Shown here: positions 1-24,529 of the stretch, one piece after another
Layout: each line of letters begins with the position of its first letter
How positions within the stretch are numbered: position 1 is the stretch's first letter
Source: Nostoc sp. PCC 7120 = FACHB-418
GTDB taxonomy: Bacteria > Cyanobacteriota > Cyanobacteriia > Cyanobacteriales > Nostocaceae
Length of the DNA stretch: 32,000 bases
Direction of reading: 5' to 3'
NCBI RefSeq assembly: GCF_000009705.1
Contig: NC_003272.1
Span: 5,010,001-5,042,000, forward strand
Translations under genes and position numbers: made by a program
The notes under the pieces: generated by a model
Database searches by the model: none
What the model was told of the DNA's origin: nothing
The model's input: the letters and a program-made list of their open reading frames with translations, nothing else

Positions 1-535
1 GTCTAAGTAATTAGCAATTTGTTTGAGGTTAGCTCCCATAAAACCCTCTCGAAAAAATGGTGGAGCATTTGTCACCAGCACTAGTGTAACCTTTTAGGGG
101 CATCTGGATTAATTGACATAATTGCTTCTCTAGTTTTCGTAAGGGTACAGAAAGCCTTAGTAAACTAAATAAGTCTGTTGGTGGATATATCCAGATTTCT
201 CATATTGCAGAAATTTGGCGAGACTTCAGGTACTCAACTTGTAAAATGAGTAGTTTATCTTGTTTCTCGATTAATTTAAAATACTATTTTTTGTTTGATA
301 TTCATCAGGTATTGAATACAAATATCTAAAAATAAAATTTAATATATGTCCAAGAAATGACAAGCCCGCATATTATTTTTGTCTTATTACCCATTACTAG
401 TTTCTATGAGCAGTTTCATAAATTAAATAGGATGGTGAGAAGTACCCAAAAGGTTCTATATTACAAACATCAATTTGTTGCCACGACTTTATGGTATTCA
501 GCAACACTTTTCGAGGGTCATTAACTGAGATGTTT

Positions 536-1600: not shown

Positions 1601-1667
1601 AAGAGTAAGGAAAAATGACTATTGACTATCTATATACAGAAATTGCACCGCAACGTCTCAATGACCA

Positions 1668-2594: not shown

Positions 2595-2631
2595 TGGAGA
2601 CCGGGAGAAAATTACCTTTGACTAATTACCA

Positions 2632-3777
2632 ATGACTAAACTAACTTGGTTACGCAAAAATCTATTTAGTACTTGGTATAACAGCCTATTAACTGTTATC
2701 TGCTCGGCGTTATCGTTGTGGCTAGTACAAGGGATTATTGTTTGGGCAACTACCAAAGCACAATGGGCAGTTATTCAAGTAAATTTACGCTTATTTTTAG
2801 TGGGCAGATTTCCCCAAACTGAATACTGGCGAGTTTGGATTGTTTTAGCGATCGCTTCTACTTTAGGTGCTGTTACTGCGGGTATTTTCTTTAATCAGCA
2901 AAAATTGACATGGCGTAAAGTAGGCTTATTTGCTTTTATTGTCGGCTTGCTACTAATTCTTTTCACCTTAGATTTGTCATCGCGCCTGTGGTTGCTGTTA
3001 ACTGCGGTTTTATTGATACCTGGTTTTTTACTTGGATCAAGGTTGACAAATTTAGTCGCCCCGTGGCTTTCCTTGATCTGGTTATTGTCCTTCCCCATCA
3101 TTCTGTGGTTGATTGGTGGCGGCTTCGGTTTGCGTCCCGTATCCAGCAATTTATGGAACGGTTTGCTACTCACCTTATTGATGGCAGCAATTAGTATAGT
3201 TCTTTCTTTTCCTATTGGCGTTCTACTCGCCTTGGGACGTACTAGCAATTTGCCGGTAGTACGTTGGTTTTCTATTCTTTACATTGAGATTGTTCGGGGA
3301 GTTCCATTAATTGGAATTTTATTTCTCGCGCAAGTTATGTTGCCTTTGTTTTTCGCAGCCGATGTCCGTTTAGATCGAGTGTTGAGAGCGATCGCTGGCT
3401 TGGTACTATTTAGTGCAGCTTACATGGCTGAGAATGTGCGCGGTGGTCTTCAAGCCGTCTCCCGTGGACAAGTTGAAGCCGCAAAAGCACTAGGGTTAAA
3501 TACATTTTTCGTAGTATTGTTAATTGTCTTGCCCCAAGCCTTACGCGCAGTTATTCCCGCTCTTGTCGGACAATTTATTGGTTTATTTAAAGACACTTCT
3601 CTACTATCGCTTGTAGGCTTAGTAGAACTTACAGGTATAGCCCGTTCGATTTTGGCACAACCTCAGTTTATTGGTCGTTATGCAGAAGTATATTTATTTA
3701 TTGGCTTGATTTATTGGCTATTTTGTTACTCAATGTCCCTTGCTTCCCGGCGGTTAGAGAGACAACTAAATAATTAA
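2632..3777 (+). CDS. natH: Amino-acid ABC transporter permease (AapM/NatH type)
   Basis: 381-aa polytopic membrane ORF. It has a second permease loop, GQVEAAKALGLN...LPQALRAVIPALVGQFI. Its stop abuts the ATPase gene. Confidence 0.85.
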   Translation: MTKLTWLRKNLFSTWYNSLLTVICSALSLWLVQGIIVWATTKAQWAVIQVNLRLFLVGRFPQTEYWRVWIVLAIASTLGAVTAGIFFNQQKLTWRKVGLFAFIVGLLLILFTLDLSSRLWLLLTAVLLIPGFLLGSRLTNLVAPWLSLIWLLSFPIILWLIGGGFGLRPVSSNLWNGLLLTLLMAAISIVLSFPIGVLLALGRTSNLPVVRWFSILYIEIVRGVPLIGILFLAQVMLPLFFAADVRLDRVLRAIAGLVLFSAAYMAENVRGGLQAVSRGQVEAAKALGLNTFFVVLLIVLPQALRAVIPALVGQFIGLFKDTSLLSLVGLVELTGIARSILAQPQFIGRYAEVYLFIGLIYWLFCYSMSLASRRLERQLNN

Positions 3778-3798
3778 GTGAACTTAAGGTTAATGTAT

Positions 3799-4539
3799 AT
3801 GGCAGAACCAACATCAATAATTATTGCTGAAGATGTTCACAAATGGTATGGCAAATTCCATGTCCTCCAAGGTGTTAGTTTAACAGTGAATCGTGGAGAA
3901 GTTGTGGTTTTAATGGGGCCTTCTGGCTCAGGAAAATCCACATTTATCCGGACATTTAATGCTTTAGAAGCATACCAGCAAGGCAGAATTACCATTGATG
4001 GCATCACTCTCAGCCACGACTTGCGAAATATTGACGCAATCCGACGAGAAGTAGGGATGGTATTTCAGCAATTTAATTTATTTCCCCATTTAACAGTTTT
4101 GCAAAACATCACCTTGGCACCCATTTGGGTACGGCGATCAAAAAAAGCCCAAGCCGAAGAATCAGCCATGCAACTCTTAGAGAGAGTAGGCATTCTAGAA
4201 CAAGCAAATAAATATCCAGGACAACTATCTGGAGGTCAACAACAACGAGTAGCGATCGCCCGCGCATTAGCTATGCAACCAAAAATTATGCTATTCGATG
4301 AACCCACTTCTGCCTTAGATCCAGAAATGGTCAGGGAAGTGCTAGACGTGATGCGCTCTCTAGCCCGCGATGGTATGACAATGGTAGTGGTTACCCATGA
4401 AGTCGGGTTTGCCCGTGAAGTCGCCGACCGAGTAGTGTTAATGGATGGCGGTCACCTAGTCGAATCAGCTAGCCCTGACAATTTCTTCACCAAACCCCAA
4501 GAAGAGCGCACCCGCAAATTTTTATCACAGATTCTCTAG
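3799..4539 (+). CDS. bgtA: Amino-acid ABC transporter ATP-binding subunit
   Basis: Walker [13 protein letters not shown] signature [15 protein letters not shown], Walker [13 protein letters not shown] and H-loop VVVTHE. The ORF track starts at GTG 3778 immediately after the natH stop. ATG 3793 or 3799 (MAEPTSIII...) is more plausible, so the start is uncertain by up to 21 nt. Confidence 0.85.
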
Positions 4540-5230
4540 TGCAAACAATTACCTCGATGCAAAAATTGCATATCTGGAAATCTTACTCTGGTGTATGTGC
4601 GTGATAAACTGCCGTAACTTGGAGATAACAGAGTATGATATCTACTCTTCCTAATTGCCCAAAAGGGTTAAATATAAACTCTTTCCAGTGGGAGATGCCA
4701 CATTTTAAAAATGTTATGTCAGTATTTAAAATAGTATCTCAGGAACGGCAAATTTACTAAATCTTTAAAATTAGTTGCTTAGTTTCAACGATGCACAACC
4801 AGTTTAAATAAGGAAAAATTTTTAACCCTCAGCCGACAGGGAGACTAAGCGAAAATCGCTATCTGGTTTTTTCGGGTGTAAGTACTGTTCAATTACATCC
4901 ACAAAACGGAATGCCCTCAGCAATTTACCATAATTTCGGGTATTATTTGCATATAAGTTGTAGTTGATACAGTAATATTTACATTGATAACAATAAGGTT
5001 TATGTATATAGTAAATAAATTATACATAGTGCTTATTTAAGAAAAAGCACAAAATCAATCACATCTTACTGACGAAAGCAATAACAATTTTTACCGAATC
5101 TTCAAAGAAAAACCAGTGACATAGAAATACTATAAAAGGGAAAATTAAGTATTAGATGCTTTCAAACATAAGCAATCTAGACCTTGCTTTAGTTATCCAA
5201 ACCAGCCAGGGGACTTCTGACTAATTTGTT

Positions 5231-6502
5231 ATGCGGATTTTAATTTACTCATATAACTACTATCCAGAACCAATTGGTATAGCTCCCCTAATGACAGAAT
5301 TAGCAGAGGGACTGGCCAAGAGAGGACATGAAGTGCGTGTGGTCACTGCTATGCCTAACTACCCTGAACGCAGAATTTACGAGGCTTACCGGGGTAAATG
5401 GTATCTGACAGAATATAAGAATGGTGTCAAAATCCAACGTAGTTACGTGTGGATTCGTCCCCAACCGAAATTATTAGACCGAGTATTGCTAGATGCTAGT
5501 TTCGTAGTCACGAGTTTTTTCCCTGCTCTGTTCGGGTGGCGGCCTGATGTGATTTTGTCAACTTCACCATCACTACCCGTGTGCATACCAGCATCTTTAC
5601 TAGGATGGTTGCGTGCTTGTCCTGTGGTCTTGAATTTACAAGATATATTACCAGAAGCAGCCATTCATGTTGGTTTACTGAAAAACAAATGGCTAATTAA
5701 GGTATTCTCCCTATTAGAAAAATTTGCCTATCGTCATGCTACTAAAATTAGCGTTATTGCTGATGGCTTTGTAGAAAATCTCCTCTCCAAAGGTATATCG
5801 CCTGACAAAATAGAGCAAATACCCAACTGGGTTGATGTGAATTTTATTCGTCCCTTACCAAAAGACAGTAATAATTTTCGGAATAGTCATAATCTGCACA
5901 ACAAATTTGTTGTCCTCTACTCTGGCAATATTGCTCTCACCCAAGGTTTAGAAACGGTCATTCAAGCTGCCGCGAAGTTGCGCGATTTCGCCGAAATTTC
6001 CTTTGTAATTGCAGGTGAGGCTAAGGGTTTAGAAAGACTGCAAAAGTATTGTACAAACTGCGGTGCTGATAACGTCTTGTTACTACCTTTTCAACCACGA
6101 GAACATTTACCAGAAATGTTGGCGGCGGCGGATGTTGGGTTAGTGGTGCAGAAAAAAAATGTGATTTCTTTTAATATGCCATCAAAGATTCAAGTCTTAT
6201 TGGCTAGTGGCAGGGCATTGATAGCGTCTGTACCTGATAAAGGCACCGCAGCCAAGGCAATTAAACAGAGTGGTGGCGGTATTGTGGTTCCCCCAGAAGA
6301 CCCTCAAGCTTTAGCAACGGCAATTTTAGACTTATACAAACATCCCGAAAAGGCTAAAACTTTGGGCTATAACAGTCGGAAGTATGCTGTGGAACAATAT
6401 GCTTTTGAGCAAGCATTAAATCAATATGAAAATTTATTTTACTCAGTGACAACAGAAGGCCAAACAATCCCATCCAAAGTAGTTTCCAAGCAGGAAGTAT
6501 GA
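5231..6502 (+). CDS. Glycosyltransferase family 4 (WcaI-like)
   Basis: 423 aa. The N-terminus MRILIYSYNYYPEPIGIAPLMTELAEGLAKRGHEV and the C-terminal FNMPSKIQVLLASGRALIAS are typical of WcaI-type GT-B enzymes. The gene is flanked by long ORF-free spacers. Confidence 0.8.
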   Translation: MRILIYSYNYYPEPIGIAPLMTELAEGLAKRGHEVRVVTAMPNYPERRIYEAYRGKWYLTEYKNGVKIQRSYVWIRPQPKLLDRVLLDASFVVTSFFPALFGWRPDVILSTSPSLPVCIPASLLGWLRACPVVLNLQDILPEAAIHVGLLKNKWLIKVFSLLEKFAYRHATKISVIADGFVENLLSKGISPDKIEQIPNWVDVNFIRPLPKDSNNFRNSHNLHNKFVVLYSGNIALTQGLETVIQAAAKLRDFAEISFVIAGEAKGLERLQKYCTNCGADNVLLLPFQPREHLPEMLAAADVGLVVQKKNVISFNMPSKIQVLLASGRALIASVPDKGTAAKAIKQSGGGIVVPPEDPQALATAILDLYKHPEKAKTLGYNSRKYAVEQYAFEQALNQYENLFYSVTTEGQTIPSKVVSKQEV

Positions 6503-6590: not shown

Positions 6591-7059
6591 TCTTAATTTT
6601 TTGCCCTCCTACTATCGAACTTAAATTTTGCCGTCTTTAGTGAGAAAGATATTCAACATATCAGACAAATAAAGCTTTAGGAAGAAGAGCTTAAATTGCT
6701 TATGCTCTATACTCAATATTAGGCAAACAGCTTAAACCAAGAGACAATGATATCTCTAAACCTTCTTGTGGATAATGTACATAAGTCAAGATACAAGAAA
6801 AAAGTTACATGACTAGTACGTAGAAAATCAGCAAGTTTGTATCAAATGCAGCAACTGTCGGAGTTATCGCTACAGAAAAATAACCTGCAACAGTATTTTA
6901 GTGACATGATAATACGTCAGCTAATTTCTCAACCTTTCTCATAGATACCTGTTTTTTTGTTAGTATTCAAAAAAACCAATAGATAGATTTACTGCTCAAT
7001 TGTTGTTTGTAAGTAATTCTCAAAAACCGTAACAAAAGGGATAAAGCACCTGAGGTTTA

Positions 7060-10876: not shown

Positions 10877-12034
10877 ATGAGTGTTAAACCGCAAGTATTC
10901 TCATTTTTTGCTGGTTCAGGATTTCTGGATTTAGGGTTTGAAACAAGTGGATTTAATATTGTCTACGTGAATGAAATTTTCTCCCCCTTTATGGCAGCAT
11001 ATCGCTATTTGAGGGAGATATTAAATTTACCCTTATCAGAATATGGATATTATCAAGGGGACACGGCAGATGTTTCTAAGTTGGTAGAAGGTTTCCCCGG
11101 AAAATATCTGTTAGATTGGGTTCAAGAATGTCGTAAATCTAATAATATTGTTGGCTTTATTGGCGGGCCTCCCTGTCCTGATTTTTCTATTGGGGGCAAA
11201 AATAGGGGTTGTTTAGGTGAAAATGGTAAGCTTTCTTCAGCTTATATAGAATTAATTTGTCAAAATTTACCAGATTTCTTTTTATTTGAAAATGTCAAAG
11301 GTTTATGGCGGACTAAAAAACATCGTCAGTTTTTTGAAGCCTTAAAAAGAAAATTAGTGGATTCAGGTTATCTATTAACCGAAAGGGTAATCAATGCTAT
11401 TGAATATGGTGTACCACAAGATAGAGAAAGAATAATTTTATTGGGTTTTAGTAAAAGTTTTATTCATGATTTTTGGAACATAAATAGTGCTAATGAAAAA
11501 CTGCTTGACTTTGTTTTCCCTTGGGAAAATAAAGTTTTATATCCTAAAGAAAAAGTGTTTGCTTATCCGTGGATTCAGGTTGAACCATTTAGAGAAAATT
11601 CTCTAATTCCTTGCCCTAATGGGATTCCTCAAGAATTAACGGTTGAATATTGGTTTAGAAAAAATAATGTAATAAACCATCCTAATTCTCAACATTATTT
11701 TCAACCAAGGGCAGGTATTCTCAAATTTGCCAGTGTTGCAGAAGGAGATGATTCTAAGAAATCTTTTAAACGTCTACATAGATGGCGTTACTCTCCTACA
11801 GCTTGTTATGGCAATAATGAAGTGCATTTACACCCTTACAAAATACGGCGAATTTCTGTAGCAGAAGCTTTGGCTATACAGTCTTTACCTGCCAAGTTTG
11901 CTTTACCAGAAAATATGTCACTAACTAATATGTTTAAAACTATTGGTAATGGTGTGCCATATTTAGCATCCAAAGCGTTGGCTGAGTCTATTCTTGATTT
12001 CCTAAATACTGGTATCAAAAAGCAACTACAATAA
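10877..12034 (+). CDS. DNA (cytosine-5)-methyltransferase, solitary
   Basis: Motif I FSFFAGSGFLDLGF, motif IV GGPPCPDFS (catalytic Pro-Cys), motif VI FLFENVKGL, motif VIII QDRERIILLGF, motif IX RISVAEALAIQSLP, motif X TIGNGVPYL. There is no adjacent endonuclease-sized ORF on either side. GC is low (34/100 at 10877-10976 and 25/100 at 11401-11500, hand counted). Confidence 0.9.
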   Translation: MSVKPQVFSFFAGSGFLDLGFETSGFNIVYVNEIFSPFMAAYRYLREILNLPLSEYGYYQGDTADVSKLVEGFPGKYLLDWVQECRKSNNIVGFIGGPPCPDFSIGGKNRGCLGENGKLSSAYIELICQNLPDFFLFENVKGLWRTKKHRQFFEALKRKLVDSGYLLTERVINAIEYGVPQDRERIILLGFSKSFIHDFWNINSANEKLLDFVFPWENKVLYPKEKVFAYPWIQVEPFRENSLIPCPNGIPQELTVEYWFRKNNVINHPNSQHYFQPRAGILKFASVAEGDDSKKSFKRLHRWRYSPTACYGNNEVHLHPYKIRRISVAEALAIQSLPAKFALPENMSLTNMFKTIGNGVPYLASKALAESILDFLNTGIKKQLQ

Positions 12035-13009: not shown

Positions 13010-13895
13010 TAAAACTTATAAAGCAACTGGCATTAATCTGAAAGCCCAAGCAATGGGAGAATCAGACAGAATAGTGACAATTTTGACACAGGAATTCGGT
13101 TTGATTCGCGCGATCGCTCCAGGGTCAAGAAAACATAACTCCAGCCTTGGTGGTAGGAGTGCGATGTTTGTAGTCAATGAACTACTGATTGCCAAAGGGC
13201 GATCGCTAGATAAAATTACTCAAGCTCAAACCATCAAAACTTATCCAGGTCTGGCAAAAGATTTGGGTAAATTAGCTGCTAGTCAATATCTAGCAGAAAT
13301 AGTTCTTTGTCAAGCCTTAAGTGAACAACCACAAGAGGAACTATACGAATTACTAAATGAACATCTCCATCGCTTGGAAGAATTACCCAAAGGAGAGTCG
13401 TTTGGTGTTCTCGCTTACTTAGCTCATGCAGTTTTTCACCTTTTAGCGTTGGCTGGACTTACCCCACAAGTACAAATTTGTTGTCTAACTCAACGCTCGT
13501 TAACACCTGATTTTGCAGATCCCAACTGGCGGGTAGGTTTTAGCATTGCGTCTGGGGGGATAGTTTGCTTAGAAGCTTGGGAAGGCTTGCGAAAAGAAGC
13601 GAGAAAAGAATCAAAAGAAAAGTCACTTCCTCATCCGGTAACTCCTGCTTACCAAACAGTTGTACATCGGCAAGAAATACCAGTAATTTCTGCTCGGTTA
13701 AATTCTGTAGAACTTGGGATGCTCCAACAGCTCTCACAACCAGAGATAATGCAAATTAACACTACCAGTGATGCCAGCTGGTTATCTGTGGAGCAGATTT
13801 TGCGTCAGTATGCTCAGTATCATTTAGGTCGCCCTATTCGCTCCGCCACTTTGATTGACTCTTATTTTGCTGCCAACCATGATGCAACCGTCTGA
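13005..13895 (+). CDS. recO: DNA repair protein RecO
   Basis: The N-terminal OB-fold region [39 protein letters not shown] and the overall length (296 aa) are typical of cyanobacterial RecO. Confidence 0.85.
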
Positions 13896-15947: not shown

Positions 15948-17096
15948 ATGCGTATAGCTTGGATTGGAAAAAAATCACCCTTTTGTGGCAATGTCACTTA
16001 CAGTAGAGAAGTTACAAACGCCTTGCTAGATAGGGGACATGAAGTCAGTTTTCTCCACTTTGCTCAAGAAGAAACTGAACCTGACAACTGGCCGAAATTC
16101 CAAGAAGTGCCTCTACCCTTCATTTATAAGTCTCAGGTTTACACTATTCCAACGTTCAAAGCGACAAAGCTTTTAACTGATTCACTGCGAGAAATCAAGC
16201 CAGATATTGTCCATGCGTCTCTGACTTTATCTCCCCTGGACTTTTTTCTACCAGAAATTTGTGACCAACTGAACTTGCCCCTAATTGCCACATTTCACAC
16301 TCCATTTGCAGGCAAAGGCGCAAAACTGATATCAGGAACACAACTTTTAGCTTATCAACTATACGCGCCTTTTTTGGGCAACTACGATCGCGTCATTGTC
16401 TTTTCCCAAATTCAGCGAGAACTATTGGCGAGTATGGGGGTGCGGGAGAAAAATATCGCAGTCATCCCCAATGGTGTGGATACCAGCAAATACTCGCCTG
16501 GGTCTTCTCTTGTGAAAAAAGAATTTCAAGCGGAACGATTGTTTGTCTACCAAGGAAGAATCGCCCCAGAGAAAAATGTAGAATCCCTGTTAAGAGCTTG
16601 GAAGCAAGCCAACATGGGTGCTGATAGTAAGTTATTAATGGTTGGAGATGGGCCTTTGAGAGCTACTTTAGAACCCTTTTATGGTTCTGAGTATGGCATT
16701 ATCTGGTTGGGATTTGTCGCTGACGAAGACCGACGCATACAGATTCTCCAGGGTGCAGATGTATTTATTTTACCTTCTCTAGTCGAGGGTTTATCCTTAT
16801 CGCTGTTAGAGGGTATGGCTTGCGGACTCGCTTGTTTAGCAACCGATGTGGGCGCAGACGGCGAAGTGTTGGAAAAAGGTGCTGGTGTAGTCATGAATAC
16901 CAAAACTGTGCGATCGCAATTACGCACCCTTTTACCACTATTCCAAGACCATCCAGAGTTAACAACAGTGCTGGGACAAAAAGCTAGAAAGCGCGTTGAA
17001 GAACGCTACACACTAGAGAAGAATATTACTCATTTAGAAGAACTTTATCGTGAAGTTTTAGCACAGCAGCCTGTAAAACTCATTTGGGGAGCTTAG
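15948..17096 (+). CDS. Glycosyltransferase family 4 (GT-B, group 1)
   Basis: 382 aa. The N-terminus is MRIAWIGKKSPFCGNVTY and the C-terminal domain has ILPSLVEGLSLSLLEGMACGL (E-x7-E motif). It contains a HIP1 site (16910), so it is probably native. Confidence 0.8.
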   Translation: MRIAWIGKKSPFCGNVTYSREVTNALLDRGHEVSFLHFAQEETEPDNWPKFQEVPLPFIYKSQVYTIPTFKATKLLTDSLREIKPDIVHASLTLSPLDFFLPEICDQLNLPLIATFHTPFAGKGAKLISGTQLLAYQLYAPFLGNYDRVIVFSQIQRELLASMGVREKNIAVIPNGVDTSKYSPGSSLVKKEFQAERLFVYQGRIAPEKNVESLLRAWKQANMGADSKLLMVGDGPLRATLEPFYGSEYGIIWLGFVADEDRRIQILQGADVFILPSLVEGLSLSLLEGMACGLACLATDVGADGEVLEKGAGVVMNTKTVRSQLRTLLPLFQDHPELTTVLGQKARKRVEERYTLEKNITHLEELYREVLAQQPVKLIWGA

Positions 17097-17156
17097 AGGT
17101 AAAATAGACTAATTTTTAGATTCTTAGTTTTTAACAACTTCAATTATTTAAAAGTT

Positions 17157-17187
17157 AGAGGTTAGCAAGCTATAATTTGCTACCTCT
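17157..17187. terminator. Hairpin between convergent genes (possible bidirectional terminator)
   Basis: agagg-t-tagcaa (17157-17168) pairs with ttgcta-cctct (17177-17187), giving 11 bp with a 1-nt bulge and an 8-nt loop. It lies between the + strand glycosyltransferase stop and the - strand nuclease stop, with T-containing tails on both strands. Confidence 0.4.
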
Positions 17188-17221
17188 TTAAATCTACAAA
17201 ATAGACATTCTGCCTCATTAC

Positions 17222-19003
17222 TTATACATCCCAGACCTTCTTTGCTAATTGAGCTAACATTTCCTGCCGACGCTCTATTGCTGTTGAGTTCCATTCATTA
17301 AATGTGCCTAAATCTTTTACTGCACGGTCAATCGCTGTATTTAATCCAACATTAACTGGTTCTACTATTGATTTAGTAATTAAAAATTTTGACTTTTGAT
17401 AAGCATTTTTCTTAACTTCAAATATTTTATTTTTTATTGAAGTATTGATAGGCTTCTCAATTAATGTAAGATTTCCTAAATATTTAACATACTTGTATAT
17501 TTGCTCTTGTTTATCAAATGAAGATTTAACTAACTCATAATTTTGAGGTAGTATATGTTCGATTTCAACAGTTTTATTTATATAGTTTTTTAAATTAGTA
17601 TGAGCTTCTATTTCTCCATAGGCTAATTCATCAATATACTGCGTAAGTTTAGCTAAGATATATTGCAAAACTTTTTTACGTACAGAATCCTCATCAAGCC
17701 GGCGAAAAGCGAGTAAAAACTTTTCCGCTAGTTTTTGTTTTTCTACTCCAATTTCCTCAAATATAAACTGATCAAGTAACTGTTGGTTATTTATTTGCCT
17801 TAGCTTAGATGCCCATTTTACAAATAAAATTTCAAGTTTACTGGATCTAGCTTGCGTAATGATACATATAAATAAAAAGTTTTCTAGATGTTTACTGAGG
17901 CTGGTAAACATTTCTTTAGAAAAGTGCTGAGTAGCTAGAAGTAATACAAAATGCTGGCTAGTTGAAAGATAAGATATATTTAGTAAATAACGGTTTGGCT
18001 TACCAAAAATATCTTTTCCTTCTTTAAAATTTGCAAATGCTTTTGCCGTTTTAACTAAAGAATCGACAAAATCAAATGGCTTATCTTGATATTCACATTT
18101 ATCCCGGTTTTCTTCAAACCATTCATAAATTTTATCTTCTCTTATGCGTTCTGAATCATATTTAGAAACAATAAAATAACGAAGAAATCTTATAGGATTT
18201 TCATTAGATTCATATAATATTTTTAGCATCTCCTTCCACTTATTTTTCAGTCTTTCAAAATCTTTGTCCTTTATAATTTTATTTTTAGCAATTTGGATAA
18301 ACATGAGATTTTTGAGTAGATCCATAGAATCCAGACCAACTCCACGATTATTAATCGTTGCAAAAACTTTGAGTGCGTGTGACATACTCTTGGTTTCTAC
18401 ACGAACTACTCTTACATTTTTAATAAAGCGTGCATAAAATAGCTTAACCTGCTGAATAGTAGTTTCATTACCACCAAATTCATCTTTTAGAAATCTTAAT
18501 GCAATTTGATAAGCATTTTTAATACGTCGCACAGAACTATTTTCAGGAATATCTAAAAAATTTTGTTGTCTAGCAATTCTTTCTAAAATGTAACGGCTTT
18601 CTTCATCATATTGAAGTTCTATTCTTTCCTTAAATTTTTCGCTACCATTTTCCTCCAAAACATATGAAGTAATAAATCCTTTAAGTTGACCAATATTATG
18701 TTCATCTGGATTTAGTTCTAGTAAATAATCTCTCACGGCACACACAATTAAATAAGCAGTCGTCATTCTTTGCTGTCCGTCAATTAGTTCATATAATTCT
18801 TGAGATTTGCAAACAATAATACTCCCTATAAAACACTCCCAATCAGAGCCGGATTTATTATCTAGAAATGGTTCATAAACATCTTCAAGAAGTTCTCTAA
18901 CCTGCTTTTCCTCCCAAACGTATTCACGCTGGTATTCTTTAACTACATAGAAGTCTTGAAATAATTCTTCTAAAGTATAATCACGCGATTCAATTGCTGC
19001 CAT
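17222..19003 (-). CDS. DUF262-DUF1524 two-domain nuclease (GmrSD / BrxU / SspE-like, putative modification-dependent restriction enzyme)
   Basis: The N-terminal domain has EYQREYVWEEKQ and DGQQRMTT, the DUF262/ParB-like NTPase hallmarks. The C-terminal domain has VEIEHILPQ...LGNLTLIEKPINTS, a DUF1524 His-Me-finger-like pattern. Length is 593 aa. AGGAGG (rc of 19014-19019) lies 10 nt upstream of the ATG. GC is very low. Confidence 0.85.
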   Translation of the reverse strand: MAAIESRDYTLEELFQDFYVVKEYQREYVWEEKQVRELLEDVYEPFLDNKSGSDWECFIGSIIVCKSQELYELIDGQQRMTTAYLIVCAVRDYLLELNPDEHNIGQLKGFITSYVLEENGSEKFKERIELQYDEESRYILERIARQQNFLDIPENSSVRRIKNAYQIALRFLKDEFGGNETTIQQVKLFYARFIKNVRVVRVETKSMSHALKVFATINNRGVGLDSMDLLKNLMFIQIAKNKIIKDKDFERLKNKWKEMLKILYESNENPIRFLRYFIVSKYDSERIREDKIYEWFEENRDKCEYQDKPFDFVDSLVKTAKAFANFKEGKDIFGKPNRYLLNISYLSTSQHFVLLLATQHFSKEMFTSLSKHLENFLFICIITQARSSKLEILFVKWASKLRQINNQQLLDQFIFEEIGVEKQKLAEKFLLAFRRLDEDSVRKKVLQYILAKLTQYIDELAYGEIEAHTNLKNYINKTVEIEHILPQNYELVKSSFDKQEQIYKYVKYLGNLTLIEKPINTSIKNKIFEVKKNAYQKSKFLITKSIVEPVNVGLNTAIDRAVKDLGTFNEWNSTAIERRQEMLAQLAKKVWDV

Positions 19004-19154
19004 TACACTTTATCCTCCTGTATTTATATTTAAAATAATCTGTAATAATTGCTGTTTTATGCGAAGCATTTATATAAAATATACAATGTTTGATTCTGAT
19101 TTAGTGAAAGAATAATTATTAGATTCCCAATCTTAATTACTCAATCTGAAATAA

Positions 19155-19904
19155 CTACCAACCCAAACTAGTTGGCTGTTCATAAACCCGCTTTAAAGTA
19201 TTGACATCTCTGGCAGAAATTGGCGGTGGGTTGCGGACTTGGGAAAAATATAAAGCATCGCTTGGTAGGGAACTATGCCCCCAAATTCCCAGGGCGTGAC
19301 CGATTTCGTGGCGGGCGGCTGCCAGAAGATACTCACCTGTTTGGGTAGGATTTAATAGGATAGTAAAGCGGTGTGATAAGACATTATTCTTTGTGTATAA
19401 TTCGTAGCGGGTGAGAGCAGAACGCGCACGGGGGATTTTATCTTTACCTATTTGTAAAGGTGGGGTTTTGCGCTCAATCGTAATATCGGCAACTTCAGCT
19501 TGTTCTACAATTACCAAAGGCAAATAATTAGCCCATTCCTGCACAGTTGTGAAAACACTATCAACCCATATTTGCGCCTGTTGTGCGTTAATTAGTTGTG
19601 GTTGTTTGATATGAACTCGCACGGGAAATTGTGACCACACTAAATAACCGACATCAGTTGTTGCAACTTGAGAAAAGTAATCACCGCTATTGGTGCTGTC
19701 TTGCCATTGTGCAAGTGTGGAAGGTAGAGGATGGGCTTTTGGTGGGGAGAAAGAGGGCTTTGTTGTTAAAGCATTACTTAACTGGAGATTAGTGAAAATG
19801 ATTAGCAGCCCTGCACCTATAAATAAGGCGAGGGCTGCTAGTAAGTGCTTTGATCGAAAATTCTTGAGGGTGTTAGGTTTTGGGTGTTGAATTTTATTCC
19901 CCAT
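19155..19904 (-). CDS. Membrane-anchored zinc metalloprotease, metzincin (matrixin-like)
   Basis: HEIGHALGIWGHS fits the HExxHxxGxxH metzincin zinc site. There is one N-terminal hydrophobic anchor (LLAALALFIGAGLLIIF). Confidence 0.7.
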   Translation of the reverse strand: MGNKIQHPKPNTLKNFRSKHLLAALALFIGAGLLIIFTNLQLSNALTTKPSFSPPKAHPLPSTLAQWQDSTNSGDYFSQVATTDVGYLVWSQFPVRVHIKQPQLINAQQAQIWVDSVFTTVQEWANYLPLVIVEQAEVADITIERKTPPLQIGKDKIPRARSALTRYELYTKNNVLSHRFTILLNPTQTGEYLLAAARHEIGHALGIWGHSSLPSDALYFSQVRNPPPISARDVNTLKRVYEQPTSLGW

Positions 19905-19924
19905 ATACCTATCTCCCTTTAATG

Positions 19925-20158
19925 TTATTTAGGTAGCCAACCTGCGCTTAAAACTACTGTTAAACCGAGGAAAATGACTGTCAATGCCCAGGTAACACGG
20001 TTTAAGGTATTTTCGGCGCTTTTGGTGCTGCTAAATAGCTGTGCTTGTCCGCCGATCGCTCCAATTCCGTCACCTTTGGGGCTATGGAGCAAAACTAATA
20101 CTATTAGACCAACGGCGGAAAGCGCCCAAATAGCTTGCACAATACTAGTAACTGTCAT
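19925..20158 (-). CDS. secG: Preprotein translocase subunit SecG
   Basis: Two TM helices with LLHSPKGDGIGAIGG between them, and a size of about 77 aa. The ORF track start 20188 is a TTG, so ATG 20158 (MTVTSIVQ...) is preferred. Confidence 0.85.
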   Translation of the reverse strand: MTVTSIVQAIWALSAVGLIVLVLLHSPKGDGIGAIGGQAQLFSSTKSAENTLNRVTWALTVIFLGLTVVLSAGWLPK

Positions 20159-20205
20159 GGTAGCAATCTCTTTTATAACAAGTTTCAAAAAAGAAGGGTT
20201 TGCTA

Positions 20206-20254
20206 ATGAGAGAACAGTTGACGGTTAACTGTTAACAGTTAACTGTTCTCTCAT
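20206..20254 (-). terminator. 49-nt near-perfect palindrome between gpmI and secG (terminator or processing hairpin)
   Basis: atgagagaacagtt (20206-20219) is the exact reverse complement of aactgttctctcat (20241-20254). The core holds three GTTAAC-containing heptamers (20224-20243). It begins 4 nt after the gpmI stop, and on the - strand a CTTCTTTTTT run follows about 10 nt later. Confidence 0.45.
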
Positions 20255-20257
20255 AGC

Positions 20258-21859
20258 TTAATTAAGCCCTACAGGAATAGGGGTGCGACTGAGTTCCACC
20301 TCATATTCTGCTGGTTGCAGGAGCGATCGCCCTGTCATTTCTGGTGGTTGGGGTAGCTGTAAAATGTCGAGGATTGTGGGTGCAATGTCGGCTAGTTTGC
20401 CGTCGCTACGTAGTTCGACGTTGGTACCATATCCAGGGATTTTAACTTTTTCGCCTTCCACTAAAATTAAGGGGACTGGGTTAGTTGTGTGAGCTGTCCA
20501 AGAATTACCTGCTTCATCTAGCATATACTCGGCGTTGCCGTGATCGGCGGTAATAATTGTTGTTCCCCCGGCTTTGCTTACACCTTCTAACAAACGACCT
20601 AAACAGCGATCAACTGTTTCGATGGCCTTTATTGTGGGTTCTATTTGACCAGTATGCCCTACCATATCTGGGTTGGCATAGTTAATGACAATTAAAGAGT
20701 AGATACCTTTTTGAATTGCGGCGATCGCTGTATCGGTAACTGCGGTTGCTGACATGGCTGGGGCTTTGTCGTAAGTCGCTACCATTGGACTGCTGACAAG
20801 TTCCCTGTCTTCCCCAGCAAAGGGTTCTTCTAAGCCACCGTTGAAGAAATAGGTGACATGGGCATACTTTTCGGTTTCGGCGGTACGAAACTGATTTAAA
20901 CCCTGATTGGCGATGACTTCACCCAGAATATTGGTTAAGTTCTGTGGCTCAAAGGCTACAGATACTGATAAATCAGAATCGTATTGGGTAAATGTGACAA
21001 AAGACAGTGGTTTGATTTGCTGTCTGGCAAAGCCTGTAAATTCAGGGCTGACAAAAGCTTGAGTCAGTTGTCTAGAACGGTCTGGACGGAAATTAAAGAA
21101 TATCACCCCATCTCCTGGCTCGACAGTACCAGGAGCAATTCGCACGGGAACAATAAACTCATCATTCACTCCTTCGGCATAGGATGCTTGCAAGACATCA
21201 ACAGCCTTGCGTCCATCACCTACACCGTCTTGAGTCATTACATCATAAGCGCGTTGTACCCGATCCCAACGGCGATCGCGATCCATCGCATAGTAACGAC
21301 CGCTAACAGTGACAATGCGCCCGATTCCTACATGATTGATGTAGTCTTCTAAGGCTGAGATTGCGTTTATACCATCGGTTGGCGCGGTGTCACGACCATC
21401 AGTAATGGCATGAATACAAACTTCAGAAATTCGCTGTTCTTTGGCTAAGTCAAGTAGTCCGAATAGATGGGTGATATGCGAGTGTACACCCCCCTCAGAA
21501 CAAAGCCCTACTAAATGTAGCTTGCCATTCCGATTGCGAACTTCCTGGCAAATTTTGACAAGAGCTGAGTTGCTGAGGATAGAACCATCCTCCACCGCAT
21601 CGGAGATTCGTACCAATTCCTGTGGCACGACTCGCCCAGCACCAATGTTCAAATGACCAACTTCCGAGTTACCCATTTGACCTTCTGGCAATCCTACGGC
21701 TTTCCCTGATGTGTGGATGAGGGTATGCGGGTAAGCCGTCCATAAGCTTTCCATTACTGGAGTTTTGGCGGCAGCAATAGCATTTCCTCGCGTCTCCTCG
21801 CAGTAGCCCCATCCGTCTAAAATGACTAGCACCACAGGAGCAACAGGTGCTTTGGTCAT
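20258..21859 (-). CDS. gpmI: 2,3-bisphosphoglycerate-independent phosphoglycerate mutase
   Basis: VVLVILDGWGY, NSEVGHLNIGAGR, HLVGLCSEGGVHSH, ITADHGNAE and similar blocks are the iPGM signature. The ORF track start 21955 is a TTG, so ATG 21859 (MTKAPVAPVVLVILDGWG) is preferred. Confidence 0.9.
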   Translation of the reverse strand: MTKAPVAPVVLVILDGWGYCEETRGNAIAAAKTPVMESLWTAYPHTLIHTSGKAVGLPEGQMGNSEVGHLNIGAGRVVPQELVRISDAVEDGSILSNSALVKICQEVRNRNGKLHLVGLCSEGGVHSHITHLFGLLDLAKEQRISEVCIHAITDGRDTAPTDGINAISALEDYINHVGIGRIVTVSGRYYAMDRDRRWDRVQRAYDVMTQDGVGDGRKAVDVLQASYAEGVNDEFIVPVRIAPGTVEPGDGVIFFNFRPDRSRQLTQAFVSPEFTGFARQQIKPLSFVTFTQYDSDLSVSVAFEPQNLTNILGEVIANQGLNQFRTAETEKYAHVTYFFNGGLEEPFAGEDRELVSSPMVATYDKAPAMSATAVTDTAIAAIQKGIYSLIVINYANPDMVGHTGQIEPTIKAIETVDRCLGRLLEGVSKAGGTTIITADHGNAEYMLDEAGNSWTAHTTNPVPLILVEGEKVKIPGYGTNVELRSDGKLADIAPTILDILQLPQPPEMTGRSLLQPAEYEVELSRTPIPVGLN

Positions 21860-23923: not shown

Positions 23924-24529
23924 TTAATTGCCGCTTTGAGAGTCAGAAGACTGCTGTTGTGTGGCTTGTCGTACTTCCTCAACACTTAAATCTAAAGCTT
24001 GTGCCACTTGCTCTAAAGTCAAACCTGCTGCCAACATTGCTGGTACTGCTTTTAGCTTGCCACTGCGCTCACCTTCTTCTTTGCCTTCTTGAAAAACATC
24101 CTGAAAATATCTAGTATTTCTTAAGTCACTGAGGCTAAACATTTCTTCTAACTCCTTCTTACTAATTGAGGGCAACTTATATAAAATGATAGTCTCTATC
24201 AATTCTAAGAATTCCTTTTGTTTAGCTGGTAAGTTGATTTCTGATTTTGTTCTGGCTATCAACTTCCTGGCTTCTACAATGGCTGTATCTTCAGATGTCA
24301 CGATCAATTTGACAGTAGCCAGACTAATTGGTAAGGAAGTCGCATCTATTAATTCATCCAGATAAATTCGCCTGACTCGCTCACTAATAAAAAATTCTCG
24401 ATAATGCTTAATATCTCCTGTGTCTATACTTCTGCTTGGATATAAAATCACAGACAACTTGGGTGCGTAAGTGCTTTTCTGCGTGAAGCAAAACAAAAAC
24501 CGCCTGTTACTCACAGACGGTTTAAACAT
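23924..24529 (-). CDS. Rpn-family (DUF2887/DUF4351-like) protein, N-terminally short; possible remnant
   Basis: ILYPSRSID, VRRIYLDEL, LELIETIILYKLPSISKKELEEMFSLSDL and the EEGE...LTLEQVAQALDLSVEEV tail match the abundant cyanobacterial Rpn/PD-(D/E)XK putative-transposase family. The N-terminal nuclease region appears missing or degenerate. The ATG lies only 18 nt after the prfA stop. Confidence 0.55.
   Translation of the reverse strand: MFKPSVSNRRFLFCFTQKSTYAPKLSVILYPSRSIDTGDIKHYREFFISERVRRIYLDELIDATSLPISLATVKLIVTSEDTAIVEARKLIARTKSEINLPAKQKEFLELIETIILYKLPSISKKELEEMFSLSDLRNTRYFQDVFQEGKEEGERSGKLKAVPAMLAAGLTLEQVAQALDLSVEEVRQATQQQSSDSQSGN

What the first reader, a model, noticed from the sequence alone, without database searches (positions are those of the whole stretch)
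17097..19154. Low-GC single-gene island encoding a standalone DUF262-DUF1524 (GmrSD/BrxU/SspE-like) nuclease
**Seen in sequence**
- A 593-aa ORF (17222..19003, - strand) carries DUF262 hallmarks (EYQREYVW, DGQQRMTT) and a DUF1524 His-Me-like C-terminus (EIEHILPQ...GNLTLIEKPIN).
- Hand-counted G+C is 20/100 at 17381-17480 and 36/120 at 18001-18120.
- Neighbouring genes are much richer: 41/100 at 5231-5330 and 35/60 at 16801-16860.
- No HIP1 octamer occurs anywhere in 16918-20322.
- The gene has its own strong AGGAGG site and AT-rich flanks of about 125 and 150 bp, with a hairpin at 17157-17187.

**Established knowledge**
- This two-domain architecture defines type IV modification-dependent restriction enzymes (GmrSD).
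- It also defines the accessory nucleases BrxU (BREX) and SspE (phosphorothioate sensing).

**Inference**
- This is a horizontally acquired, self-contained anti-phage module dropped between a native glycosyltransferase and a native protease.
- No BREX, Ssp or Dnd partner genes are present.
- Cyanobacterial DNA is heavily methylated (solitary Dmt-type methylases are known, and an m5C methylase lies 5 kb away). The specificity of this nuclease must therefore spare host marks, which makes its target modification an open and interesting question.
Basis: partly seen in the sequence, partly recalled or inferred. Interest (0 to 1): 0.7.

Follow-up and report, generated by a model that had tools for sequence, protein, structure and literature searches.

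The report
Standalone GmrSD-like nuclease in hot spot
This is an intact, single-gene restriction-type nuclease of the well-known GmrSD (DUF262-DUF1524) family, sitting as a swappable cassette in a variable spot of Nostoc/Anabaena genomes; it is a real but ordinary anti-phage gene whose DNA target is still unknown.

Summary
A 593-aa ORF (17222-19003, minus strand) has both GmrSD Pfam domains and all published GmrSD motifs. It lies in a 2.05-kb tract with 29% G+C between a native glycosyltransferase and a native M10-like protease.

- **Standalone:** no BREX, Dnd or Ssp partner occurs in the 32-kb window or next to the 10 homologues examined.
- **Accessory:** the gene is present at this junction in only 2 of 69 syntenic Nostocales loci. 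The closest relative carries a different cassette with breakpoints at 17096/19151.
- **Not a one-off recent drop-in:** five other lineages carry it at the same junction. Divergence there is mostly similar to the flanks, and dN/dS is 0.04-0.18.
- **One recent exchange:** against Anabaena subtropica, gene dS is 0.05 versus 0.5-0.6 for the flanks.
- **Low G+C is a family trait:** the gene is 10-16 points below its host in eight hosts.
- **HIP1 gap is uninformative:** P = 0.79.

The junction is a hot spot for toxin-antitoxin and defence cargo. The nearest characterised relatives are HEC-06 (a validated single-gene defence) and DndI, not BrxU. This is a new member of a known kind, of low-to-moderate interest.

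The parts
17222..19003 (-). GmrSD-like ORF, 593 aa (DUF262 NTPase domain, helical linker, DUF1524 His-Me/HNH nuclease domain)
   Evidence: ORF. Pfam PF03235 and PF07510. PADLOC Orf5 PDLC02688 at 1297 bits and HEC-06 at 252 bits. dN/dS 0.04-0.18 among six carriers. AlphaFold model pLDDT 83.4; best fold match DndI 9JFL, TM 0.55.
18299..18970 (-). DUF262 / GmrS-like ParB-Srx-fold NTPase domain (residues 12-235), including YQRE (24-27), DGQQR (75-79; nt 18767-18781) and FATIN (214-218)
   Evidence: Pfam match. These residues are invariant in a 30-sequence family alignment. Motif definitions from PMC4619093.
17249..17725 (-). DUF1524 / GmrD-like His-Me finger nuclease domain (residues 427-585), including IEHILPQ (481-487; EIEHILPQ = nt 17543-17566), LGNLTLIEKPIN (509-520), NKIFEVKK (525-532) and W571...W591
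   Evidence: Pfam match. E482, P486, G510, N511 and L512 are invariant; H483, N520 and N525 are at least 90% conserved. Motif definitions from PMC4619093.
19014..19019 (-). Shine-Dalgarno AGGAGG, 10 nt upstream of the ATG
   Evidence: Read directly from the sequence. A GGAG/AGAG core is conserved in the six carriers.
17157..17187 (-). Conserved stem-loop about 35 nt after the stop codon, followed by UUUUAAAU; probable terminator of the cassette
   Evidence: RNA fold. Conserved in all six carriers with one compensatory U-A to C-G change. It did not meet the simple terminator scan because the U-tract is weak.
17097..19150 (.). The swappable cassette: the whole intergenic tract between the convergent 3' ends of the glycosyltransferase and the M10-like protease
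   Evidence: Homology with the closest relative L001 (about 96% nt in the flanks) stops at 17096 and resumes at 19151. L001 holds a different 1.9-kb cargo there. About 28 nt next to the protease stop (19127-19154) resembles the empty-site sequence.
16806..19176 (.). Approximate tract of recent recombinational exchange with the Anabaena subtropica lineage
   Evidence: Identity is about 99% inside and 80-90% outside. Mismatch density changes near 16806 and 19176. Gene dS is 0.05 versus 0.51-0.63 for flanking genes.
17106..17123 (+). Left copy of an imperfect 18-nt direct repeat at the cassette edge (AGACTAATTTTTAGATTC)
   Evidence: It matches the right copy at 16/18 positions, P about 0.008 by shuffling. 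The pair is found only in this lineage and L002, so its meaning is unresolved.
19109..19126 (+). Right copy of the direct repeat (AGAATAATTATTAGATTC)
15948..17096 (+). Native GT4 glycosyltransferase; left anchor of the hot spot
   Evidence: Pfam. Present in all 80 related loci at 84-100% identity.
19155..19904 (-). Native M10-like metalloprotease; right anchor of the hot spot. It is followed by SecG and iPGM.
   Evidence: Weak Matrixin match, E 2.6e-4, below the gathering score. Syntenic in 69 loci.

Best explanation
The ORF encodes a functional single-chain member of the GmrSD-like superfamily. It has an N-terminal ParB/Srx-fold NTPase (DUF262, DGQQR motif), a long helical linker and a C-terminal His-Me/HNH nuclease (DUF1524, EHxxPQ...GNLxL...N motifs).

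It belongs to a mostly cyanobacterial subfamily. The nearest characterised relative is HEC-06, a single-gene anti-phage system, and the nearest solved structure is DndI.

**Most likely mechanism (inferred from the family).** The protein acts alone, probably as a dimer. NTP binding and hydrolysis at DGQQR gates a conformational change that controls DNA binding and release. The HNH site then nicks or cleaves incoming phage or plasmid DNA that carries a mark, or lacks a feature, distinguishing it from host DNA. The most probable distinguishing feature is a non-host base modification, which would make this type IV restriction.

**Genomic setting (shown).** The gene with its own ribosome-binding site and terminator forms a roughly 2-kb cassette. 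The cassette occupies the convergent-3'-end junction between a core glycosyltransferase and a core protease. Across Nostocales this junction is a hot spot that holds alternative toxin-antitoxin or defence cargos, or nothing. The cassette persists under purifying selection. It is lost, replaced or re-acquired by homologous recombination in the flanking core genes.
For: **Shown**
- Both Pfam domains are well above threshold.
- All seven GmrSD motifs defined in PMC4619093 are present, and the catalytic ones are invariant in 30 homologues.
- Full-length PADLOC matches to HEC-06 reach 252 bits, E 2.8e-75.
- HEC-06 is a validated standalone defence. Its DGQQR and EH mutants lose activity.
- Profile and fold searches give DndI as the nearest structure: E 7.7e-29 and TM 0.55.
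- dN/dS is 0.04-0.18.
- No partner genes occur in the window.
- No dnd/ssp/BREX/Hma partners lie beside the homologues in L081, L083, L084, L086, L088, L090 and L091. One homologue is embedded in a type I R-M operon, L089.
- Hot spot: junction length is 95-6180 bp across 69 loci, while neighbouring junctions are nearly constant.
- Alternative cargos include PIN and HigB toxin-antitoxin pairs, DUF29, an NsnA-like DUF262 protein, a caspase-like protein and PDC-M11A.
- The cassette is swapped at exact breakpoints in the closest relative.
- There is a recent exchange tract with A. subtropica.

**Inferred**
- Nuclease and NTPase activity.
- Defence role.
- Modification dependence.
Against: - No biochemical or phage data exist for this protein or its subfamily.
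- Neither of the two closest relatives has been shown to be modification-dependent. DndI cuts DNA that lacks phosphorothioate. The target of HEC-06 is not reported in the text I read.
- Classical modification-dependent members (BrxU, GmrSD) are only distantly related. BrxU scores E 0.0039 by profile and is absent from the significant fold hits.
- No promoter signal above chance was found upstream.
- No close relative occurs on any phage or plasmid record, so no vector is identified.
Confidence: 0.65

Rival explanations
1. DndI-type logic. The nuclease is constitutively active on DNA that lacks a host mark (phosphorothioate or a host methylation). The mark is written by genes elsewhere in the genome. 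It stimulates the NTPase and releases the enzyme from self DNA.
For: - The nearest solved structure by sequence, profile and fold is DndI.
- DndI works this way.
- PADLOC labels the subfamily 'Orf5', the old name of DndI.
- Nostocales carry conserved solitary methyltransferases, one of them 5 kb away.
Against: - No dnd or ssp genes lie within the 32-kb window or within 7-8 kb of any of the 10 homologues examined. In contrast, dndI is described as adjacent to and co-transcribed with dnd genes.
- The window protein scores only 136-158 bits on the two models that genuine DndI hits best (883 and 468 bits). DndI scores only 50 bits on the window's own model.
- The cassette moved alone between lineages. 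That would be toxic if an unlinked mark were needed.
- The tyrosine aligned with the phosphorothioate-sensing Y25 is part of the universal YQR motif, so it is uninformative.
Confidence: 0.12
2. A standalone defence nuclease that does not read DNA modification at all. Instead it is triggered by another feature of infection, such as a phage protein, DNA ends, replication intermediates or nucleotide pools.
For: - HEC-06, the closest validated relative, differs from BrxU in its defence pattern and predicted quaternary structure. No modification dependence is stated for it.
- ParB/Srx-fold domains have diverse NTPase and nuclease roles.
Against: Every biochemically characterised DUF262-DUF1524 enzyme (GmrSD, BrxU, SspE, DndI) discriminates DNA by a covalent modification. 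There is no direct evidence for an alternative trigger.
Confidence: 0.15
3. A recently inserted foreign gene of no current use to the host (selfish or decaying passenger).
For: Strongly atypical composition. Patchy distribution.
Against: - The ORF is intact in all six carriers, with dN/dS 0.04-0.18 and dS up to about 1.
- Low G+C is a family-wide trait, not a signature of recency.
- The ribosome-binding site and terminator are conserved.
Confidence: 0.03

Closest known systems
HEC-06 (Hma-embedded candidate 06; Payne et al., bioRxiv 10.1101/2024.01.29.577857)
   Same: - Single polypeptide of about 560-590 aa with the DUF262-linker-DUF1524 architecture.
- DGQQR and EHxxP motifs at nearly the same positions: Q79/R80 and E471/H472 in HEC-06 versus Q77-Q78/R79 and E482/H483 here.
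- Full-length profile match at 252 bits.
- It works as a one-gene defence.
   Different: - The window protein belongs to a separate PADLOC cluster (PDLC02688, 1297 bits).
- It is not embedded in an Hma or R-M operon.
- Its host is a cyanobacterium.
- It has not been tested experimentally.
DndI (= ORF5 of the Salmonella enterica Cerro 87 dnd cluster; PDB 9JFL; PMC11662687, PMC2978375)
   Same: - Same length and architecture.
- Best sequence, profile and fold match among solved structures: E 7.7e-29, TM 0.55.
- DGQQR NTPase plus HNH nickase.
   Different: - Only 19% identity.
- No neighbouring dnd genes.
- Scores far lower than true DndI on the DndI-specific profiles.
- DndI is toxic without phosphorothioate, whereas this cassette travels alone.
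SspE (SspABCD-SspE; PDB 6JIV/7DRS)
   Same: DUF262 N-terminal domain with DGQQR. DUF1524 nuclease. Fold hit at E 1.5e-11.
   Different: - SspE is about 770 aa.
- The sequence match is essentially limited to the first 90 or so residues.
- No ssp genes are nearby.
BrxU / GmrSD / Eco94GmrSD (classical type IV, modified-cytosine-dependent)
   Same: Same two Pfam domains and the same motif set.
   Different: - Very distant. BrxU scores E 0.0039 by profile and is not among the significant fold hits.
- No BREX context.
- The BrxU RLFDS motif reads ELFQD here.
Core-genome defence hot spots described in E. coli, Pseudomonas and Vibrio (recalled from my own knowledge, not checked here)
   Same: Conserved flanking core genes. 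Alternative defence or toxin-antitoxin cargos, or an empty site. Exchange by flanking homologous recombination.
   Different: - The cargos are small, mostly single genes or toxin-antitoxin pairs.
- No integrase or tRNA is present.
- The site is between convergent 3' ends.
- The taxon is Nostocales. My two PCC 7120 searches returned no paper on this gene or locus.

Membership tests
GmrSD-like superfamily (DUF262 + DUF1524) | N-terminal PF03235 (GmrSD_N/DUF262) domain above the Pfam gathering score | tested here: met
   115.8 bits versus cutoff 33.2; residues 12-235 cover profile positions 2-199 of 199.
GmrSD-like superfamily (DUF262 + DUF1524) | C-terminal PF07510 (GmrSD_C/DUF1524) domain above the Pfam gathering score | tested here: met
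   95.5 bits versus cutoff 23; residues 427-585.
GmrSD-like superfamily (DUF262 + DUF1524) | GmrS motifs: QR pair, (I/V)DGQQRxTT, FxxxN (PMC4619093) | tested here: met
   YQRE 24-27, LIDGQQRMTT 73-82 and FATIN 214-218. Q25, R26, D75-R79 and N218 are invariant in 30 homologues.
GmrSD-like superfamily (DUF262 + DUF1524) | GmrD motifs: (I/L/V)(E/D)H(I/L/V)xPQ, L(G/A)NLxLL...N, NxxFxxKK, W...W (PMC4619093) | tested here: met
   IEHILPQ 481-487, LGNLTLIEKPIN 509-520, NKIFEVKK 525-532 and W571...W591.
Type IV (modification-dependent) restriction enzyme | Cleaves DNA only when it carries a specific modification; NTP-dependent | not testable with these tools
   Requires biochemistry or phage assays.
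HEC-06 | Full-length homology to the HEC-06 profiles | tested here: met
   PDLC04157 at 252 bits (residues 10-592 on profile 13-556 of 558), with two further HEC-06 models at 237-238 bits. The protein's own cluster model is a different one (PDLC02688), so it is a sister subfamily, not the same cluster.
HEC-06 | Confers phage resistance as a single gene; abolished by DGQQR or EH mutations | not testable with these tools
   Shown for HEC-06 only.
DndI (PADLOC 'Orf5') | Adjacent to or co-transcribed with dndBCDE / dndFGH | tested here: not met
   No dnd genes in the 32-kb window or beside the 10 homologues. Whether dnd genes exist elsewhere in the genome was not tested.
DndI (PADLOC 'Orf5') | Best match to the profile that genuine DndI matches | tested here: not met
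   DndI scores 883 bits on PDLC02701 and 468 on PDLC02695. The window protein scores 136 and 158 on those. DndI scores only 50 bits on PDLC02688.
DndI (PADLOC 'Orf5') | Phosphorothioate-sensing tyrosine in an N-terminal hydrophobic patch | tested here: inconclusive
   Y24 aligns with DndI Y25, but this is the Y of the YQR motif shared by the family.
SspE | About 770-aa protein encoded next to sspABCD | tested here: not met
   593 aa. Only the N-terminal 90 or so residues match. No ssp genes nearby.
BrxU | Embedded in a BREX locus; RLFDS nucleotide-binding motif | tested here: not met
   No BREX genes. The motif reads ELFQD. Profile E-value to 7P9K is only 0.0039.
Genomic defence/accessory hot spot | Conserved core flanks with variable cargo or an empty site across related genomes | tested here: met
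   69 loci. The GT|M10 gap is 95-6180 bp, versus 319-528, 13-430 and 55-260 bp for the neighbouring junctions. There are 9 essentially empty sites and more than 15 cargo types.
Genomic defence/accessory hot spot | Cargo enriched in defence or toxin-antitoxin genes | tested here: met
   PIN, HigB and DUF29. NsnA-like DUF262, caspase and PDC-M11A. Non-defence cargo also occurs, judged from the translated sequences rather than from family scans: OCP-like protein, catalase and transposases.

The most novel reading that the evidence does not exclude
The cyanobacterial subfamily might work by DndI-like 'self-mark release' logic, using one of the conserved solitary Nostocales DNA methylations instead of phosphorothioate. 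One candidate is the methylation written at or around the very abundant HIP1/CGATCG sites. The nuclease would then patrol DNA and be released by the host's genome-wide methylation pattern. That would amount to a restriction system whose 'modification subunit' is an unlinked, core-genome orphan methyltransferase.

My evidence does not exclude this. The nearest structure is DndI, the target is unknown, and the carriers I examined are Nostocales with HIP1-rich flanks. Nothing positively supports it, and family members also occur in non-cyanobacterial hosts.
Probability: 0.06. Interest if true: 0.65.

Novelty: new member of a known kind. Interest (0 to 1): 0.25.

Why it matters
**For PCC 7120 genetics.** Nostoc/Anabaena PCC 7120 is a model organism whose DNA uptake is already known to be limited by restriction. 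An uncharacterised, intact type IV-like nuclease is a practical candidate barrier to transformation with modified DNA and to cyanophage infection.

**For cyanobacterial genomics.** The locus gives a clean, easily scored example of a small defence and toxin-antitoxin hot spot in Nostocales:
- empty sites;
- more than 15 alternative cargos;
- exact swap breakpoints;
- one dated recombinational exchange.

**For the protein family.** It adds a well-conserved cyanobacterial subfamily between HEC-06 and DndI. Its target specificity is open. None of this changes current understanding of GmrSD-like enzymes.

Tried and rejected
- **HIP1 depletion as evidence of foreign origin.** Rejected. The largest-gap test gives P = 0.79.
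- **Low G+C as evidence of recent acquisition.** Rejected. The G+C deficit is family-wide, and in most carrier pairs the gene's divergence is similar to that of the flanks.
- **Boundary 18-nt direct repeat as a general att or target-duplication site.** It exceeds chance locally (P about 0.008). However, the pair occurs only in the window/L002 lineage, and one copy sits beside unrelated cargos. Left unexplained.
- **Sigma-70 promoter and terminator scans.** Nothing above shuffled expectation. The only terminator-like hit belongs to the protease 3' end.
- **NCBIfam.** No model hit.
- **Phage and plasmid collections.** No close relative; best hits are 37% identity on plasmids and 34% on phages, so no vector was found.
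- **Literature on this gene in PCC 7120.** A search for PCC 7120 with GmrSD found no paper. A search for PCC 7120 with dnd/phosphorothioate found two papers, neither followed up.
- **PADLOC 'Orf5' label.** Traced to ORF5/DndI of the Salmonella dnd cluster. The window protein is not in the DndI-proper cluster.
- **iPGM dN/dS values with about 28% nt identity.** These are frame artefacts of partial HSPs and were ignored.
- **Not tested.** Whether dnd or ssp genes exist elsewhere in the carrier genomes.
Full report
**1. Observation**

The ORF at 17222..19003 on the minus strand (593 aa, ATG start) exists as described.
- G+C 20/100 at 17381-17480, 36/120 at 18001-18120, 41/100 at 5231-5330 and 35/60 at 16801-16860.
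- Motifs EYQREYVW (23-30), DGQQRMTT (75-82), EIEHILPQ (480-487) and GNLTLIEKPIN (510-520).
- AGGAGG at 19014-19019, 10 nt before the ATG.
- AT-rich flanks of 125 and 151 bp (G+C 0.26 and 0.23).

The tract 17097-19154 has G+C 0.293. It is the lowest 2-kb stretch in the window; the median is 0.42 and the next lowest is 0.36. Gene GC3 is 0.199 against 0.375 +/- 0.044 for the 28 other ORFs, z = -4.0.

The stem-loop at 17157-17187 folds as stated.

The only weak point is the HIP1 argument. The octamer is highly over-represented in the window: 29 sites against 0.17 expected. The gap 16918-20322 is real. However, with 29 sites a largest gap of at least 3.4 kb arises in 79% of random placements, and three other gaps of 2.9-3.1 kb exist.

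**2. What the protein is**

Pfam places residues 12-235 in GmrSD_N (PF03235, E 3.5e-33) and residues 427-585 in GmrSD_C (PF07510, E 3.4e-27). Both are far above the gathering scores.

The family-defining motifs listed by Machnicka et al. (PMC4619093) are all present:

| Domain | Motif in the window protein | Residues |
|---|---|---|
| GmrS | YQRE (QR pair) | 24-27 |
| GmrS | LIDGQQRMTT | 73-82 |
| GmrS | FATIN (FxxxN) | 214-218 |
| GmrD | IEHILPQ | 481-487 |
| GmrD | LGNLTLIEKPIN | 509-520 |
| GmrD | NKIFEVKK | 525-532 |
| GmrD | W...W | 571-591 |

The catalytic residues are invariant or nearly so in an alignment of 30 homologues at 45-86% identity.

An AlphaFold model built on that alignment has mean pLDDT 83.4. 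Its only significant matches among solved structures are DndI (9JFL: E 7.4e-16, TM 0.55, 19% identity) and SspE. A sequence profile gives the same order:
- DndI 7.7e-29, over the full length.
- Two unnamed DUF262 entries, about 1e-16.
- SspE 2.7e-11, N-terminal domain only.
- BrxU 0.0039.

**3. Which branch of the family**

PADLOC's top hit is an 'Orf5' model (PDLC02688, 1297 bits), which evidently contains this sequence. Three HEC-06 models follow at 237-252 bits over the full length. SspE and the generic type IV model score only weakly.

'Orf5' is ORF5 of the Salmonella Cerro 87 dnd cluster (PMC2978375). It was later characterised as DndI (PMC11662687).

To see whether the window protein is a true DndI, I rebuilt residues 12-561 of DndI from the alignment and scanned it against PADLOC:

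| PADLOC model | DndI (bits) | Window protein (bits) |
|---|---|---|
| PDLC02701 (Orf5) | 883 | 136 |
| PDLC02695 (Orf5) | 468 | 158 |
| PDLC02688 (Orf5, window's own cluster) | 50 | 1297 |
| PDLC04157 (HEC-06, best for both) | 189 | 252 |

The window protein therefore belongs to a distinct subfamily, a sister to HEC-06 and DndI.

HEC-06 is the closest relative with a demonstrated phenotype. It confers phage resistance as a single gene in E. coli, and resistance is lost on mutating Q79/R80 (DGQQR) or E471/H472 (EHICP).

**4. Context in the window**

All other ORFs of at least 100 aa, apart from antisense overlaps, are housekeeping. In order they are: an ABC transporter, a glycosyltransferase, RsfS, asparaginase, tRNA-Met, a DUF697 protein, a solitary m5C methyltransferase (10877-12034), DeoC, RecO, an MFS transporter and the GT4 glycosyltransferase. 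The GmrSD-like gene comes next. After it come the M10-like protease, SecG, iPGM, ABC-F, DUF2887, RF-1, ribosomal proteins, TruA, RpoA and Adk.

No BREX, Dnd, Ssp, Hma or type I R-M gene is present.

**5. Is it acquired?**

An identical protein occurs on a 6,413,771-bp contig and is named from Anabaena sp. FACHB-709. That length is the size I recall for the PCC 7120 chromosome; this is from memory and was not checked. In all 24 contigs read, it has the same neighbours.

I fetched 80 Nostocales loci through the glycosyltransferase and mapped the neighbouring genes. In 69 loci the order MFS - GT - M10 - SecG - iPGM is kept. Junction lengths across those loci:

| Junction | Range (bp) | Median or IQR |
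|---|---|---|
| MFS / GT | 319-528 | median 357 |
| GT / M10 | 95-6180 | IQR 662-1645 |
| M10 / SecG | 13-430 | median 13 |
| SecG / iPGM | 55-260 | median 94 |

- Nine loci are essentially empty at GT/M10 (95-287 bp).
- Only L002 (A. subtropica, 99% aa) and L063 (N. linckia z4, 80%) carry the gene at this junction.
- The closest relative, L001 (N. parmelioides FACHB-3921), has flanks about 96% identical. Its homology stops exactly at 17096 and resumes at 19151. In between it carries a different 1.9-kb cargo: a Methyltransf_33 protein and a membrane protein.

**6. It is not a one-off recent insertion**

The next-best homologues all lie at the same junction in the same orientation: Nostoc sp. 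MS1 (86%), a MAG labelled Leptolyngbyaceae but Nostocales-like by synteny (85%), and Nostoc sp. UHCC 0302 (83%).

Among the six carriers, the gene's synonymous divergence is generally similar to or somewhat below that of the flanking genes:

| Pair | Gene dS | Flanking genes dS |
|---|---|---|
| Window vs L063 | 1.12 | 0.75-1.41 |
| Window vs L083 | 0.96 | 0.83-1.25 |
| Window vs L002 | 0.05 | 0.51-0.63 |

dN/dS is 0.04-0.18 throughout, so the protein is under purifying selection.

The L002 pair is the clear exception. The island is about 99% identical while the flanks are 80-90% identical. Mismatch density changes inside the 3' ends of the two flanking genes, at about 16806 and 19176. This is the signature of a recent transfer by homologous recombination in the flanks.

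No integrase, transposase or tRNA is associated. No close relative is found on plasmids (best 37% identity) or phages (best 34%).

**7. Low G+C is a property of the family**

In eight hosts the gene is 10-16 G+C points below its flanks:
- 0.29/0.41 in Nostoc.
- 0.33/0.42 in Brasilonema.
- 0.36/0.47 in Microcoleus.
- 0.41/0.53 in an Ardenticatenaceae genome.
- 0.46/0.62 and 0.515/0.655 in two high-G+C metagenomic genomes.

The Nostocales copies have diverged to dS of about 1 without ameliorating. Composition therefore cannot be read as evidence of recency. Why it stays low is unexplained.

**8. The junction is a hot spot**

Cargos found at the same junction in other genomes include:
- DUF29 proteins (26 loci).
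- PIN toxin plus antitoxin.
- HigB plus a HigA-like partner.
- A pair that looks BrnT/BrnA-like from its sequence (not scanned).
- A VapC-like pair, next to an NsnA/PD-T4-2-like DUF262-only protein with a 206-aa partner (L023).
- A caspase-like 914-aa protein (L008).
- A PDC-M11A-like protein (L007).
- By inspection of the translations only: a Ser/Thr kinase, OCP-like proteins, a catalase and transposases.

The cassette is thus one allele of a small defence and toxin-antitoxin hot spot located between two convergent 3' ends.

**9. Cassette anatomy**

The ribosome-binding region and about 60 nt upstream are conserved among carriers. So is the downstream stem-loop, which shows one compensatory U-A to C-G change. 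The gene therefore travels with its own expression signals.

No promoter match exceeds chance.

An 18-nt imperfect direct repeat sits exactly at the two edges, at 17106-17123 and 19109-19126, matching at 16/18 positions. It is unlikely by chance locally (P about 0.008) and absent from the rest of the window. But the pair occurs only in this lineage and L002, and the left copy also lies beside unrelated cargos in L016 and L023. I leave it unexplained.

**10. Contexts of more distant members**

The members examined are as follows:
- **Standalone between housekeeping genes:** Brasilonema (64% identity), Microcoleus (60%) and two metagenomic genomes (45-47%).
- **Embedded in an operon:** an Ardenticatenaceae member (47%) lies in an hsdM-hsdS-DUF4268-[gene]-hsdR operon. 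This matches the 'embedded GmrSD-like' pattern described for HEC-06.
- **Not seen anywhere:** dnd, ssp or BREX neighbours.

**11. Mechanism**

*Shown:* family membership, intact catalytic motifs, purifying selection and autonomy of the cassette.

*Inferred from characterised relatives:*
- An NTP-binding and hydrolysis cycle at DGQQR controls conformation and DNA binding.
- The His-Me site nicks or cleaves DNA.
- Discrimination between self and invader rests on a covalent DNA mark.

The cassette moves alone and lacks a linked modification module. The validated relative HEC-06 works alone in E. coli. I therefore favour an autonomous restriction nuclease, most probably modification-dependent (type IV), with overall confidence 0.65.

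The main rivals are:
- A DndI-like enzyme protected by an unlinked host mark (0.12).
- A nuclease triggered by something other than modification (0.15).

**12. Verdict**

The gene is annotated in public records only as 'DUF262 domain-containing protein', and PADLOC's best model for it (PDLC02688) evidently contains this sequence. It is a new member, of an uncharacterised cyanobacterial subfamily, of a well-known kind.

The added value of this analysis is the evolutionary picture: a hot spot, an exact swap, one dated exchange, and a family-wide G+C deficit. It also places the protein next to HEC-06 and DndI rather than BrxU or GmrSD.

Interest is low to moderate (0.25).

Noticed in passing
window 10877-12034 (+): A solitary C-5 cytosine DNA methyltransferase (PF00145, E 2e-46) with no adjacent nuclease. 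It has the second most atypical composition in the window (G+C 0.34, GC3 0.22). Even so, it is syntenic in L001, L002, L003, L063, L081, L083 and L084, whether or not the GmrSD-like cassette is present.
   Followed up: partly
L023 10178-11206 (-) and 11199-11819 (-): At the same junction in Nostoc linckia FACHB-104 sits a DUF262-only protein (342 aa). It matches PADLOC NsnA at 5.6e-30 and PD-T4-2_A at 1.4e-20. A 206-aa partner without any family match overlaps it. This is a second, unrelated ParB-like defence candidate in the same hot spot.
   Followed up: partly
L001 9170-10934 (-): The closest relative of the window carries, in place of the GmrSD-like cassette, a Methyltransf_33-like 381-aa protein plus a 193-aa membrane protein. 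Neither has a PADLOC hit. This is a two-gene cargo of unknown role in a defence hot spot.
   Followed up: partly
L008 11081-13825 (-); L007 10520-12241 (+): Other cargos at the junction are a 914-aa caspase-like protein with a long coiled-coil repeat region (PADLOC caspase, 6e-19) and a 573-aa PDC-M11A-like protein.
   Followed up: partly
L089 3320-13042: In an Ardenticatenaceae genome, a 47%-identical family member lies inside a type I R-M operon, in the order hsdM, hsdS, DUF4268, GmrSD-like, hsdR, all in one orientation.
   Followed up: no
window 17106-17123 and 19109-19126: An imperfect 18-nt direct repeat (16/18) lies exactly at the two cassette edges. P is about 0.008 by shuffling, and there are no other copies in the window. 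It is not a general feature of the other carriers.
   Followed up: yes
L081, L083, L084, L086, L088-L091 (gene versus flanks): Members of this subfamily are 10-16 G+C points below their host flanks in every host examined, including high-G+C genomes. The Nostocales copies have not ameliorated despite dS of about 1.
   Followed up: partly
L084 about 6790-6925; L083 about 6860-6970; L063 about 11240-11370 (alignment A3): Extra 110-135-bp insertions occur in the region between the protease stop and the cassette's start codon in three carriers. They may be small dispersed repeats or MITE-like elements.
   Followed up: no
PDB entries 20yv / 20yw: Two 818-aa chains, described only as 'DUF262 domain-containing protein', match the family profile (E about 1e-16, best stretch in the N-terminal domain). 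I could not find what they are.
   Followed up: no
window 13855-13895: The listed TTG start of the MFS ORF (13855) overlaps the RecO ORF end (13895) by 41 nt. The N-terminal 130 or so residues lack a Pfam match, so the true start may be further downstream.
   Followed up: no
window 23924-24529 (-): A DUF2887 protein is conserved next to ABC-F in L081 and L084. The family is common in cyanobacteria and its function is unknown.
   Followed up: no
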